A stretch of 25,620 nt of DNA from the IMG/VR virus record IMGVR_UViG_2713896798_000006. One strand, 5' to 3'. Below the pieces are notes generated by a model that worked only from the letters and a program-made list of their open reading frames with translations, ran no database searches and was not told the DNA's origin. Of the stretch, positions 8,871 through 13,064 are shown piece after piece. The DNA is from a virus (lineage: Duplodnaviria; Heunggongvirae; Uroviricota; Caudoviricetes). A program made the translations under genes and the position numbers. The stretch's first letter is position 1; the number at the start of each line of letters is the position of its first letter.

Positions 8871-9848
8871 GTGTTCGGGGGTTTTATGAGCAGCAAGCTT
8901 CATGGTCTTGTCTGGGAAGGGTGCGCCTTCACCGGCATGATCTTATCCAGGGTGGCGGTTATGGCCCGTCTTGCAGACTACAGCAATGACGAGGGCGTGT
9001 CATGGCCTGCCATTGAAACTATCCGGCGTCAGATCGGTGCAAGAAGTGAATCCACAGTGAAATCGGCTATTGCAGAACTGGCGAAAGAGGGCTGGCTGAC
9101 GAAGGAAGAGCGTAAGGTCGGTGGGCGTAATGTAAGCAATATCTATCGGCTTAATGTGGAAAAACTCGAAGCAGCTGCGGCGGCGGCGCGTGAGTCATAT
9201 AAACCGAAAAGAAAAATTAGCCCGGCAAAAAATGACCCGTTAACAGTTGACCCGTCAAATATTGACCCCTCAACGGTTGACCCGTCAAATTTTGATGGAT
9301 CAACTGTTGATAAAAAACTGCCGATTAGGGGGGCGATGATTGACCCCGATCCGTCAGTATTAAAACCTGATCCGTCAGATAAAAGATCTTCTTGTCCGGA
9401 CGCTTCGCAACCGGACCCGCAGACGGCTGAACAGGATTTTTTAACCCGACACCCTGACGCGGTTGTGTTCAGTGCGAAAAAACGCCAGTGGGGAAGTCAG
9501 GAAGATTTGGTGTGCGCACAGTGGATCTGGGGACGAATCGTGAGTCTTTACGAGCAGGCGGCCAGCGATGATGGCGAGATCACTAGACCGAAAGAACCCA
9601 ACTGGACAGCATGGGCCAATGACGTTCGCACAATGCGGATGCTGGATGGCAGAACTCACAGACAAATTTGTGAAATGTTTGGGCGTCTCCAGCGGGATTC
9701 GTTCTGGGTAAAAAACATCATGAGTCCGGCAAAACTCCGGGAAAAATGGGATGAACTGGTTATCCGCCTGGGGCGTTCGCCTGCGCAGCGTTGCGTGAAT
9801 CACATTTCTGAACCGGACACTGAAATACCGCCGGGATTCAGGGGGTGA
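8871..9848 (+). CDS. Replication initiator (lambda O-like) containing the iteron array; start may be at 8886 (MSSKLHG)
   Basis: N-terminal wHTH-like region; internal 15-bp-period iterons encoding DPLTVDPSNIDPSTVDPSNFDGSTVD; immediately followed by a DnaC-like gene. Confidence 0.7.
   Translation: MFGGFMSSKLHGLVWEGCAFTGMILSRVAVMARLADYSNDEGVSWPAIETIRRQIGARSESTVKSAIAELAKEGWLTKEERKVGGRNVSNIYRLNVEKLEAAAAAARESYKPKRKISPAKNDPLTVDPSNIDPSTVDPSNFDGSTVDKKLPIRGAMIDPDPSVLKPDPSDKRSSCPDASQPDPQTAEQDFLTRHPDAVVFSAKKRQWGSQEDLVCAQWIWGRIVSLYEQAASDDGEITRPKEPNWTAWANDVRTMRMLDGRTHRQICEMFGRLQRDSFWVKNIMSPAKLREKWDELVIRLGRSPAQRCVNHISEPDTEIPPGFRG
9232..9303. repeat. Putative replication origin iterons: five 12-bp near-palindromic repeats at 15-bp spacing
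   Basis: ATGACCCGTTAA, TTGACCCGTCAA, TTGACCCCTCAA, TTGACCCGTCAA, TTGATGGATCAA starting at 9232, 9247, 9262, 9277, 9292; degenerate copies at about 9338 and 9367. Confidence 0.6.
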
Positions 9849-11406: not shown

Positions 11407-11802
11407 ATGGCGAAACCTTTTACACACGAACAGCGTGAAGAACTGAAGGCCCGAATTATCGGGCTGGTACGCAAAAATGAACGCATGACGATATCACAAC
11501 TGGAGAGAGCGACGGGAGCAGGCTGGCATTCAGTCAGACGTTGCCTTGTGGATGTACTGGCTTGTGGCGATTTATACATGCCCGGTAAATACGGTGTTTT
11601 TACATCAGAACAGGTGTATCGCGTATGGCGTAAGGCAGCGGAGAAAGCAACCGACCAGACATTGATTCGAAAGTTACCAGACGGAGAAATACGCCGCTAC
11701 GACAGACAACAGAACATAATCTGTGGCGAGTGCCGGAAGAGTGAAGTTATGCTGCGTGTACTGGCGTTCTATCAGGGCAATTTTCAGGAGGCGGTACTGT
11801 GA
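11407..11802 (+). CDS. Hypothetical prophage protein (131 aa)
   Basis: ORF with GGAGG ribosome-binding site 6 nt upstream; possible HTH-like MTISQLERATGAGWHSVRRCL; overlaps the next gene start. Confidence 0.45.
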   Translation: MAKPFTHEQREELKARIIGLVRKNERMTISQLERATGAGWHSVRRCLVDVLACGDLYMPGKYGVFTSEQVYRVWRKAAEKATDQTLIRKLPDGEIRRYDRQQNIICGECRKSEVMLRVLAFYQGNFQEAVL

Positions 11803-12443
11803 GTGAATTAGCTATCAGGCTTCAATTGTCGCTGGCATTCGCATCAAAGGAGAATGAGATGATCACTTTTACAAAAGAGCAGTTAATCAGTCATGTTAGT
11901 GAAAATGTAAAGGCGATGAAATTTGCAGTAAAACAGACAGTATTCAAAAATTCTCTCGAGGCAATTGAGTTGGATTTAGCACTGGCCCTTGTTGCTCAGG
12001 CTTCGCTGGAAGCAGAGCCCGTGCTTTATATGAATCGATTTACCGGAAAGACATTCTCACTGGAAGAGCAACCCGGTGCTGATAAGGAACCGGAAATATA
12101 CGTGCCGCTATATGCTGCCCCGCCAGACAGCGCCGCCATGCTTCAGGCTGGAAACTTTCGGGAAAATAAGGGTTCGTCAACCAATAATTTTCGGGAAATC
12201 TCGGAAACGTCAACCAACTATCCGGTAACTCCGGATGGTTGGATAAGCTGTAGTGAGCGAATGCCGGATGATGGTCAGCACGTAATTATTTTATGTGATG
12301 GCGCATTCGTTCTTTATGCGCAATATCGAGACGGTGAGTTTTTTGATGTAGTCCGTAATGGTGATGAATTTTTCGAAACACAGAGCCGCAATGTAACCGA
12401 CTGGATGCCGCTACCAGAACCGCCGCAGGAGGTGCGCCAATGA
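11799..12443 (+). CDS. DUF551-like C-terminal domain protein; alternative start at 11859
   Basis: C-terminus WISCSERMPDDGQHVIILCDGAFVLYAQYRDGEFFD...WMPLPEPP typical of DUF551; both GTG 11799 and ATG 11859 have good Shine-Dalgarno sequences. Confidence 0.6.
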   Translation: MSELAIRLQLSLAFASKENEMITFTKEQLISHVSENVKAMKFAVKQTVFKNSLEAIELDLALALVAQASLEAEPVLYMNRFTGKTFSLEEQPGADKEPEIYVPLYAAPPDSAAMLQAGNFRENKGSSTNNFREISETSTNYPVTPDGWISCSERMPDDGQHVIILCDGAFVLYAQYRDGEFFDVVRNGDEFFETQSRNVTDWMPLPEPPQEVRQ

Positions 12444-12693: not shown

Positions 12694-12908
12694 GGTAAAA
12701 ACGGTTTGCGGTAAAGCGAGAGTTAAGTAGAATTGCTGCGGGTGCTTGAGGCTGTCTGCCTCGGGCATGCCACCGTAAGGCAGACAGAGAAAAGCCCCAG
12801 TTAACATTACGCGTCCTGCAAGACGCCTAACATTAATCTGAGGCCAATTTCATGCTAGACATATGTAGGTTAGCCTCTTACGCGCCGAAAGGCAAGGAGA
12901 AGCAGGCT

Positions 12909-13064
12909 ATGAAGCAGCAAAAGGCGATGTTAATCGCCCTGATCGTCATCTGTATCACCGTCATAGTGACGGCACTGGTAACGAGGAAAGACCTCTGCGA
13001 GGTACGAATCCGAACCGGCCAGACGGAGGTCGCTGTCTTCACAGCTTACGAACCTGAGGAGTAA
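12909..13064 (+). CDS. hokD: Hok/Gef family type I toxin (51 aa)
   Basis: MKQQKAMLIALIVICITVIVTALVTRKDLCEVRIRTGQTEVAVFTAYEPEE is essentially K-12 HokD as I recall it; followed by a terminator; the track ORF extends upstream in frame from 12852. Confidence 0.85.
   Translation: MKQQKAMLIALIVICITVIVTALVTRKDLCEVRIRTGQTEVAVFTAYEPEE

What the first reader, a model, noticed from the sequence alone, without database searches (positions are those of the whole stretch)
12150..12235. Short direct repeat inside the DUF551-like gene
TTTCGGGAAA followed by CGTCAACCAA occurs twice about 40 bp apart, encoding NFRENKGSSTN and NFREISETSTN. It could be a slippage-prone coding repeat or an embedded binding site.
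Basis: seen in the sequence. Interest (0 to 1): 0.2.

Follow-up and report, generated by a model that had tools for sequence, protein, structure and literature searches.

The report
Shared repeat linker joining phage protein modules
The short repeat is real: it is a two-copy, 11-codon spacer between the two halves of a prophage protein, and the same stretch of DNA is found in many otherwise unrelated phage genes, where protein modules have been swapped on either side of it.

Summary
There are two in-frame 33-bp units, at 12153-12185 and 12186-12218, identical at 24 of 32 aligned bases. They encode NFRENKGSSTN and NFREISETSTN. The units lie in the spacer of a 194-aa prophage protein (11859-12443), just upstream of its Pfam DUF551 domain.

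This is not a phase-variable repeat. All 120 close orthologues carry two units. Among 121 loci holding the DNA unit, 117 have two units, 3 have one and 1 has three, the last in a decayed gene. No evidence supports a binding-site array.

The units plus a short AAMLQxG leader form an island of about 90-115 bp with roughly 85-100% DNA identity. Unrelated sequence flanks it on both sides. It joins at least 36 N-side to at least 17 C-side module families (48 combinations) in Escherichia, Shigella and Salmonella phages and P1-like plasmids. It occurs in 1167 of 5426 complete E. coli genomes.

I read it as a shared interdomain linker cassette that serves as an in-frame homologous crossover patch.

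One point is unexplained. Its synonymous sites are 7-17 times less variable than those of adjacent modules, especially in four 10-mers.

It is a new example of a known kind, of modest interest.

The parts
11859..12443 (+). Gene for a 194-aa DUF551-domain prophage protein, identical to RefSeq WP_000627694.1. The ATG is preceded by AAGGAG.
   Evidence: ORF list; RefSeq annotation of the 100% identical stretch in E. coli 2011C-4251; Pfam scan.
11859..12125 (+). N-terminal module, aa 1-89, ending ...PLYAAPP. Elsewhere it occurs joined to other sequence without the linker.
   Evidence: The blastn match to phage record PP818812.1 ends at window position 12126. The protein there continues ...YAAPPAPVVPEF... 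instead of DSAAMLQAG.
12126..12152 (+). Leader of the linker cassette (DSAAMLQAG). It forms the left part of the shared island of DNA identity.
   Evidence: Many blastn hits begin at query positions 332-335, which is window 12130-12133. The identity profile rises from about -24 nt. Left ends of homology cluster from -16 to -44 nt.
12153..12185 (+). Repeat unit 1: AAC TTT CGG GAA AAT AAG GGT TCG TCA ACC AAT, encoding NFRENKGSSTN.
12186..12218 (+). Repeat unit 2: AAT TTT CGG GAA ATC TCG GAA ACG TCA ACC AAC, encoding NFREISETSTN.
12156..12165 (+). Invariant 10-mer TTTCGGGAAA. The second copy is at 12189-12198.
   Evidence: Exact matches occur only here in the window. The positions are invariant or nearly so in 40 unique 66-mers drawn from 240 loci.
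12175..12184 (+). Invariant 10-mer CGTCAACCAA. The second copy is at 12208-12217.
   Evidence: It was never found outside linkers in 2.18 Mb of related DNA.
12215..12443 (+). C-terminal DUF551 module. The Pfam domain covers aa 127-190, which is 12237-12428. Elsewhere the module is found fused to other N-terminal parts without the repeat.
   Evidence: Pfam E-value 6.8e-21. Blastn hits begin at query position 417, which is window 12215. Proteins from Stx2a_1447 and E. coli AST262 carry the same module after ...GNSPVIPDSW and ...AVNYPVTPDGW respectively.

Best explanation
The repeat is an old in-frame tandem duplication of an 11-codon unit. It encodes a hydrophilic spacer, probably flexible, between the N-terminal module and the DUF551 domain. 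Together with the preceding AAMLQxG codons it forms a mosaic cassette of about 90-115 bp. That cassette is shared at the DNA level by many different multi-module accessory proteins (annotated EaA, Eaa, Ea22-like or DUF551) of temperate enterobacterial phages and P1-like phage-plasmids. It is a patch of near-identical DNA embedded in otherwise unrelated genes, and several copies coexist in one host genome. Homologous recombination in or beside the patch therefore joins any upstream module to any downstream module in frame.

Shown here: the island of identity, the reticulate module combinations, the uncoupling of the linker's genealogy from that of its flanks, and recombinant combinations of unit-1 and unit-2 alleles.

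Inferred: that recombination at the patch is what generated these combinations, and that the peptide acts only as a spacer.

Copy number is essentially fixed at two. Rare one- and three-unit alleles arise by unequal crossing-over or slippage between the identical 10-mers.
For: Position in the protein:
- The repeat sits between modules and outside the Pfam domain.
- The same C-module and the same N-module exist elsewhere without it.

Island of DNA identity:
- In 1193 pairs of loci with unrelated N and C sides, identity is about 25% in the flanks and 83-100% across the 66 nt.
- In 487 pairs with unrelated flanks, the linker is 77-95% identical.
- Homology ends cluster at -16 to -44 nt and at +73 to +82 nt.

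Module combinations:
- 277 loci give 36 N-side clusters, 17 C-side clusters and 48 combinations.
- Eight pairs of N clusters each share at least two C clusters.

Uncoupled genealogy and internal recombination:
- The linker's synonymous difference stays at 0.5-6% whether the flanks differ by 0% or 39%.
- All four combinations of unit-1 alleles (NNKN, NSKN) with unit-2 alleles (IAETN, IPEAS) exist.
- Linkage to the C side decays from unit 2 (AMI 0.67) to unit 1 (0.50).

Opportunity for recombination:
- The 89-nt linker query hits 1167 of 5426 complete E. coli genomes, 2773 places, median 2 and up to 8 per genome.
- It also hits 139 phage records and 112 plasmids of about 90-105 kb from Escherichia and Salmonella.

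Spacer character:
- In orthologues, 12 of 22 linker sites vary, against 14 of 89 in the N-module and 20 of 74 in the DUF551 side.
- The sequence is rich in N, S, T, E, R and K. It has the lowest pLDDT and no predicted secondary structure in the AF2 model.

Literature:
- Short conserved boundary sequences as sites of homologous exchange in lambdoid phages are an established proposal (Susskind & Botstein 1978 and Clark et al. 2001, as cited in PMC3029335).
- The mosaicism of ea22 genes and the portability of DUF551 are published (PMC10834534).
Against: - No recombination event was observed directly. An island shared by descent, with illegitimate junctions on both sides, would look similar.
- A plain spacer does not predict the near absence of synonymous change in the four 10-mers.
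- The AF2 model is poor overall, with mean pLDDT 38.6, so the disorder inference is weak.
- Perfect identity between the two deepest linker classes is only about 26 nt. That is near the lower limit I recall for RecA-dependent exchange (own knowledge, about 23-27 bp).
Confidence: 0.6

Rival explanations
1. The cassette carries a nucleic-acid-level signal. The four 10-mers (TTTCGGGAAA and CGTCAACCAA, each present twice with a 33-nt period) would be kept by selection on the DNA or RNA itself. Possible roles are a protein-binding site, a dedicated recombination adaptor or an RNA target, with the coding function secondary.
For: - In 40 unique 66-mers from codon-degenerate scans, which are unbiased for synonymous choice, nine fourfold-degenerate third positions in the blocks are invariant or nearly so. 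AAY third positions outside the blocks are polymorphic.
- The blocks do not respect codon boundaries. The final A of GAAA and the CG of xCG stay fixed while the amino acid changes.
- In a sample found through the neighbouring zinc-ribbon module, and so free of ascertainment on the linker, 2 of 15 linker codon columns show synonymous variants. In the module that starts at the next codon, 27 of 38 do (Fisher p=1.8e-4).
- The same contrast appears (p=7e-7).
Against: - The 10-mers are absent elsewhere in the window.
- CGTCAACCAA was never found outside linkers in 2.18 Mb of related DNA, and TTTCGGGAAA was found there in only 6 unique contexts, about the chance level.
- The element is always in one reading frame inside an ORF.
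- RNA folding is not significant, with z-scores of -0.98 and -0.50. There is no Rfam hit.
- Only a 9/12 antisense promoter-like match was found, within chance expectation.
- There is no candidate binding protein.
- A well-mixed recombining pool with a recent coalescence explains much of the low diversity.
Confidence: 0.17
2. The repeat is a pair of short linear peptide motifs, (N/D)FRE...S-T-N, that bind a host or phage partner. Its wide retention would then reflect selection on the peptide.
For: F-R-E and S-T-(N/K) are kept in both units and in both deep allele classes: NFRENKxSSTN-NFREIxETSTN and DFREIxNSSTN-N(F/C)RENAETSTK. Two units are retained in 117 of 121 loci.
Against: - Close orthologues tolerate substitutions at F, R, E, T and N.
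- Intact genes with a single unit exist.
- The same modules function without the linker.
- Selection on the peptide alone would leave synonymous sites free, and they are not.
- No PDB or Pfam relative of the peptide was found.
Confidence: 0.13
3. It is a slippage-prone (contingency-type) coding repeat whose copy number varies to modulate the protein.
For: One-unit and three-unit alleles exist, with junctions in the identical 10-mers.
Against: There is no copy-number variation in 120 orthologue sequences. Only 4 of 121 loci differ from two units, and the three-unit allele sits in a gene with a premature TAG and a 1-nt deletion. The unit is 33 nt, so the frame never changes. The two copies are only 75% identical.
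Confidence: 0.04
4. It is a programmed +1 ribosomal frameshift site. UUU in the P site would re-pair on UUC while the rare CGG codon waits in the A site. The result would be a truncated N-module protein with a basic tail.
For: - UUU-CGG-G is invariant in both units, including the synonymous positions.
- CGG is reported as an A-site codon that favours +1 frameshifting in E. coli, and 'TTT CGG C' was among the top FSscan candidates (PMC2790909).
- In 101 of 131 contexts the +1 frame stays open for exactly 22 codons and stops at CGG-TAA just after the linker. It encodes GKxRxRQPIIFGKSRKRQPTIR.
Against: - An open run of 22 codons is expected by chance in about a third of sequences, and all copies are related.
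- Four contexts have a +1 stop three codons after UUU yet keep all the blocks.
- Frameshifting does not explain the conservation of CGTCAACCAA.
- There is no upstream Shine-Dalgarno-like stimulator.
- There are no product data.
Confidence: 0.03
5. It is a chance similarity between two neighbouring stretches.
For: There are only two copies, and they are 75% identical.
Against: Shuffles rarely or never reproduce it. The two-unit structure is conserved in hundreds of loci.
Confidence: 0.01

Closest known systems
Short conserved boundary ('linker') sequences at module junctions of lambdoid phages (Susskind & Botstein 1978; Clark et al. 2001, as cited in PMC3029335)
   Same: It is a short patch of high DNA identity flanked by unrelated sequence on both sides. 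It lies at a module boundary, the flanking modules occur in reticulate combinations, and it is found in lambdoid phages of enteric bacteria.
   Different: This patch lies inside a gene, at a boundary between protein domains, and it preserves the reading frame. It is itself a tandem repeat and encodes a spacer peptide. It also recurs in P1-like phage-plasmids and at different map positions: the replication/nin side in this window and the int-xis/ea side in Stx phages.
Mosaic Ea22 / EaA / DUF551 proteins of lambda and Stx phages (PMC10834534)
   Same: It comes from the same pool of early accessory genes, and DUF551 is described there as a portable C-terminal domain in mosaic proteins. Several database records that hold this linker are annotated EaA, Eaa or Ea22.
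   Different: The window protein has no Ead/Ea22 Pfam signature. The published work describes mosaic blocks at the protein level, and the papers I searched do not describe this repeat linker or its DNA-level conservation.
Origin iterons embedded in the linker-coding part of the lambda O gene
   Same: These are also direct DNA repeats lying within the part of a phage gene that encodes an interdomain spacer, so they have a dual protein and DNA role. A probable example lies in this same window at 9212-9286.
   Different: Iterons number four or more and bind the protein encoded by the same gene, and they occur once per replicon. The repeat here has two copies, no known binding protein and up to 8 copies per host genome in unrelated genes.
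Phase-variable / contingency tandem repeats
   Same: It is a tandem repeat in a coding region with occasional gain or loss of a unit.
   Different: The unit is 33 nt and in frame, there are only two imperfect copies, and copy number is stable among close relatives.

Membership tests
Pfam PF04448 (DUF551) | The protein matches the DUF551 HMM above the gathering score. | tested here: met
   75.3 bits against a cut-off of 22, E-value 6.8e-21, aa 127-190.
Pfam PF04448 (DUF551) | The repeat lies inside the DUF551 domain. | tested here: not met
   The repeat covers aa 99-120 and the domain starts at aa 127. The same domain occurs elsewhere without the repeat.
Ead/Ea22-like family (IPR025153) | The N-terminal and coiled-coil Ead_Ea22 signature is present. 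| tested here: not met
   The Pfam scan of the window protein at E<=0.01 returns only DUF551. NCBIfam returns nothing.
Conserved boundary sequence for modular exchange | A short patch of high DNA identity is flanked on both sides by unrelated sequence in many genomes. | tested here: met
   flanks are about 25% identical, the island 77-95% and the 10-mer blocks 97%.
Conserved boundary sequence for modular exchange | The patch lies at a module boundary and the flanking modules occur in reticulate combinations. | tested here: met
   36 N-side and 17 C-side clusters give 48 combinations. Eight pairs of N clusters share at least two C clusters. Linker and flank genealogies are uncoupled. The four-gamete combinations exist inside the linker.
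Conserved boundary sequence for modular exchange | Recombination is demonstrated to occur at the patch. | not testable with these tools
   This needs genetic crosses.
Contingency (phase-variable) repeat | Copy number is polymorphic among close relatives. | tested here: not met
   0 of 120 orthologues vary. 4 of 121 loci vary overall.
Contingency (phase-variable) repeat | A change in copy number switches the frame or expression. | tested here: not met
   The unit is 33 nt, which is 11 codons.
Iteron / operator-type binding-site array | The motif recurs at other control sites, or outside coding context, in the replicon or in related replicons. | tested here: not met
   for the window, and for 2.18 Mb of related DNA.
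Iteron / operator-type binding-site array | A cognate binding protein exists. | not testable with these tools
   There is no candidate. This needs EMSA or ChIP.
Diversity-generating retroelement variable repeat | Variation is adenine-specific, and a template repeat and reverse transcriptase lie nearby. | tested here: not met
   The adenines in the blocks are invariant. No reverse transcriptase is annotated in the prophage region.
Programmed +1 frameshift site | A shift-prone P-site codon is followed by a slowly decoded A-site codon. | tested here: met
   UUU-CGG-G occurs in both units. The A-site properties of CGG come from PMC2790909. This covers sequence features only.
Programmed +1 frameshift site | The +1 frame is conserved, or the frameshift product has been detected. 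| tested here: inconclusive
   The +1 frame is open for 22 codons in 101 of 131 contexts, but that is not beyond chance or shared descent. Four contexts carry an early stop. The product is not testable here.
Intrinsically disordered interdomain linker | The segment has no predicted secondary structure and low confidence, lies between folded domains, and has relaxed sequence constraint. | tested here: inconclusive
   Linker residues have the lowest pLDDT (24-27) and no secondary structure, but the whole model is poor at mean pLDDT 38.6. A higher fraction of sites varies in orthologues.

The most novel reading that the evidence does not exclude
The cassette is more than an inherited spacer. Its four 10-nt blocks would be held by selection at the nucleotide level. 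That would make it a dedicated in-frame recombination adaptor, or another DNA/RNA signal such as a recoding or binding site, which phages maintain to reassort the domains of their accessory proteins.
Probability: 0.18. Interest if true: 0.65.

Novelty: new member of a known kind. Interest (0 to 1): 0.35.

Why it matters
Whether phage mosaicism is made at special conserved junction sequences or by random illegitimate joining followed by selection is an old question. This cassette is a clean and abundant case of the first kind, at the level of protein domains. It is a patch of about 100 bp that links dozens of module families in frame, and it is present several times in many pathogenic E. coli genomes. 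It offers a simple experimental handle: recode the patch synonymously and measure chimera formation. It is also useful for annotation. These proteins are chains of exchangeable modules, so the names 'DUF551', 'EaA' and 'Ea22' describe only one piece each. The frozen synonymous sites remain unexplained and would be worth a proper population-scale test.

Tried and rejected
- Tandem Repeats Finder did not call the repeat, because two imperfect copies score too low.
- My first pattern used the wrong spacer (N12 instead of N9) and found nothing.
- The codon-degenerate two-unit pattern gave only one hit in 185,579 species-representative genomes. That hit is a chance match with in-frame stops. This shows a narrow host range but added no loci.
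- RNA folding of either strand is not better than shuffles. Rfam has no family at the repeat.
- The promoter scan found only a 9/12 antisense match, within chance expectation.
- AlphaFold2 on the shallow orthologue alignment gave a poor model with mean pLDDT 38.6, so it cannot establish disorder.
- PDB sequence searches with the whole protein and with the linker peptide gave nothing meaningful. The poly-ubiquitin hit comes from a short TGKT.SLE.P similarity and is not significant for single ubiquitin.
- NCBIfam has no model for these proteins, and the PHROG families that match have unknown function.
- The DGR idea was rejected: variation is not adenine-specific and no reverse transcriptase is annotated.
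- Dual coding in the +1 frame was rejected as the cause of block conservation, because some contexts have an early +1 stop.
- My first synonymous-site control was uninformative. Shared flanking modules in that sample are themselves near-identical. The test became informative only with the diverged zinc-ribbon module.
- Literature searches found nothing describing this linker.

Full report
**What is there**

The region 12150-12235 lies in an ORF on the + strand. RefSeq annotates the 100% identical stretch in E. coli 2011C-4251 as a 194-aa 'DUF551 domain-containing protein', corresponding to window 11859-12443. The gene sits in a Rac/CP-933P-like prophage next to potCD, between replication genes and hokD, DUF968, rusA and the antiterminator gene.

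The motif TTTCGGGAAA-N9-CGTCAACCAA occurs exactly twice in the window, at 12156-12184 and 12189-12217. No shuffle reproduced this. The full units are 33 nt each: 12153-12185 and 12186-12218. They match at 24 of 32 aligned positions, are in frame, and encode NFRENKGSSTN and NFREISETSTN. Only 1 of 200 shuffles of the window reaches that identity at offsets of 12-60.

The repeat covers aa 99-120. The Pfam DUF551 domain covers aa 127-190. The repeat is thus in the gene but outside the domain, in the spacer between an N-terminal part and the DUF551 domain.

**Copy number**

All 120 best database relatives are at least 96% identical and have two units. A scan of IMG/VR for the exact unit returned 120 loci. 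Together with the window that makes 121 loci. Of these, 117 have two units, 3 have one (L036, L049, L076) and 1 has three (L029).

The one-unit alleles keep either the unit-1 centre or the unit-2 centre. The extra unit in L029 is a precise 33-bp duplicate of unit 2. Both outcomes are what unequal exchange or slippage between the identical 10-mers would produce. The L029 gene also carries a premature TAG and a 1-nt deletion. The repeat can therefore change copy number, but rarely, and it never changes the reading frame. It is not a contingency locus.

**The unexpected part**

Blast hits with the whole gene fall into classes. They start at window ~12130 (just before the repeat), start at 12215 (its last bases) or end at 12126.

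- The same DUF551 module is fused, without the repeat, to other N-terminal parts in Stx2a_1447 and in E. coli AST262.
- The same N-terminal module continues into different sequence in the phage record PP818812.1.
- The same double unit, preceded by AAMLQ(S/A)G, sits in EaA-type proteins of Shigella phage Ss-VASD and of the P1-like Salmonella phage SJ46. There it is followed by a different module.

In the loci from the DNA scans the double unit is always in the same frame inside a long ORF. It joins many different upstream sequences to many different downstream ones. The downstream modules include several DUF551 variants, an 'SEVLSAILKV...' module, an 'ALLPGGFTIEE...' module and two cysteine-rich zinc-ribbon-like modules.

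Over 277 loci I count 36 N-side clusters, 17 C-side clusters and 48 combinations. Eight pairs of N clusters each share at least two C clusters. Only DUF551 is known to Pfam among these modules.

For 1193 pairs of loci unrelated on both sides, DNA identity is about 25% in the flanks. It rises to 53-64% over the 24 nt before the repeat and to 83-100% across most of the 66 nt. Homology ends cluster at -16 to -44 nt and at +73 to +82 nt.

The cassette occurs widely:

- It is found in 1167 of 5426 complete E. coli genomes, at 2773 places, with a median of 2 and up to 8 per genome.
- It is found in 139 phage records, mostly Stx-converting and other Escherichia, Shigella and Salmonella phages.
- It is found in 112 plasmids of about 90-105 kb from Escherichia and Salmonella.
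- It was not found in any of 185,579 species-representative genomes apart from one chance match.

**How it most likely works**

The simplest reading is that the repeat encodes a spacer and belongs to a cassette of about 100 bp that acts as a shared in-frame crossover patch.

- The linker's genealogy is uncoupled from that of its flanks. Its synonymous difference stays at 0.5-6% whether the flanks differ by 0% or by 39%.
- Linker alleles are linked more tightly to the C-side module (AMI 0.50-0.67) than to the N-side module (0.29-0.36). Linkage decays across the linker.
- All four combinations of two unit-1 alleles with two unit-2 alleles exist. The unit-2 alleles differ at three residues, so this points to crossover between the two unit centres, that is, within the repeat.

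This matches the old proposal that homologous exchange at short conserved boundary sequences contributes to lambdoid mosaicism. It also matches the published description of ea22 genes as mosaic and of DUF551 as a portable domain.

Some evidence is compatible with a mere spacer. The composition is hydrophilic, there is no predicted secondary structure, and pLDDT is lowest there. The AF2 model is poor overall, however. Within the orthologues, a higher fraction of sites varies in the linker than in the flanking modules.

**What remains unexplained**

Variation in the linker is very uneven. Two codon-degenerate scans, which do not bias codon choice, gave 240 hits. Of these, 239 contain at least one exact DNA unit.

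In the 40 unique 66-mers the four 10-mers are almost invariant. That includes nine fourfold-degenerate third positions, and it includes bases belonging to codons whose amino acid varies. The 9-nt centres and the AAY third positions outside the blocks are polymorphic.

My first control was uninformative, because shared flanking modules in that sample are also near-identical. I then found 11 distinct genes through the adjacent zinc-ribbon module, independently of the linker. In these genes:

- The linker shows synonymous variants in 2 of 15 codon columns, with a pairwise difference of 1.9%.
- The module that begins at the next codon shows them in 27 of 38 columns, with a pairwise difference of 32% (Fisher p=1.8e-4).
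- A smaller set gave the same contrast.

A well-mixed recombining pool with a recent coalescence explains low overall diversity. It does not obviously explain why the polymorphism avoids the blocks.

I tested several DNA- and RNA-level explanations.

- There is no significant RNA structure and no Rfam family.
- Only a weak antisense promoter-like match was found.
- The 10-mers are not dispersed elsewhere.
- UUU-CGG-G has the sequence features of a +1 frameshift-prone site, and the +1 frame usually stops right after the linker.
- Some contexts have an early +1 stop yet keep all the blocks, so translation of the +1 frame cannot be what conserves them.

I therefore keep nucleotide-level selection as a rival and as the most novel reading, at about 0.18.

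**Comparison and verdict**

The protein is a member of Pfam DUF551. It is not a member of the Ead/Ea22 family by the Pfam test. The repeat fails the tests for a contingency repeat, an iteron or operator array, and a DGR repeat. It meets the tested criteria for a conserved boundary sequence at a module junction, although recombination at the patch was not demonstrated.

It differs from the classical examples in being intragenic, frame-preserving, itself a tandem repeat and shared with P1-like phage-plasmids. I found no description of it in the searched literature.

I rate it a new member of a known kind. It is ordinary as a repeat and moderately interesting as an unusually clear domain-shuffling junction with unexplained synonymous conservation. 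Interest: 0.35.

Noticed in passing
window 9212-9286: There are about five phased 15-bp direct repeats (consensus ~TTGACCCGTCAAnnn) inside the gene for the helix-turn-helix replication-initiator-like protein (window ~8886-9848). They look like origin iterons embedded in the initiator gene, as in lambda O.
   Followed up: partly
window 12740-12914: A strong Rfam match to the sok antitoxin RNA (114 bits against a gathering score of 59) lies next to the annotated hokD toxin gene. This is a hok/sok type I toxin-antitoxin locus immediately downstream of the DUF551 gene.
   Followed up: no
window 12216-12240: A 10-bp hairpin (AACUAUCCGG / CCGGAUGGUU with a 5-nt loop) is predicted exactly at the junction that codes NYPVTPDGW. 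That is where the homology of the DUF551 module begins. It may simply follow from the CCG-G...CCG-G proline codons.
   Followed up: no
window 11407-11802: The DUF977 gene is intact in the window: 131 aa with a full-length Pfam match. In E. coli 2011C-4251, the reference strain in which the neighbouring DUF551 gene region (11799-12443) is 100% identical, it carries an internal stop (PGK*GVF against PGKYGVF). The window therefore comes from a close relative and not from that strain.
   Followed up: yes
window 12021-12191 (protein aa 55-111): phmmer gives E~7e-6 to poly-ubiquitin chains, but only 0.9 to single ubiquitin. The hit rests on ...FTGKTFSLEEQP... against ...LTGKTITLEVEP..., and I consider it a short chance similarity inflated by the repeated target.
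   Followed up: partly
L003 (plasmid NZ_CP150020.1) and L004 (NZ_OZ121072.1): Some loci carry runs of adjacent fragments annotated as incomplete Ea22-like, Eaa, hypothetical or DUF551 pseudogenes. This suggests repeated breakage and rejoining among these modular genes.
   Followed up: no
L286-L365 (zinc-ribbon module loci): The cysteine-rich module CWCxTCRP...CPxCGNKRCPHANDHR is preceded by at least six different junction types...ERDALNAPD...GNSPVTPD...EQVTK...PQNIPEIIPD, the FRE double unit and a single FRE unit. Other recurrent junction motifs (AAMLQxG, YAAPPAPVVP, NSPVIPDGW) may play the same linker role.
   Followed up: partly
one related locus among L006-L285 (not in the window): One occurrence of TTTCGGGAAA outside a linker is part of a near-perfect inverted repeat, AGTTTCCCGAAAACGGGTTTCCCCATTTCGGGAAAACT, which looks like an operator. 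It was seen in one locus only.
   Followed up: no
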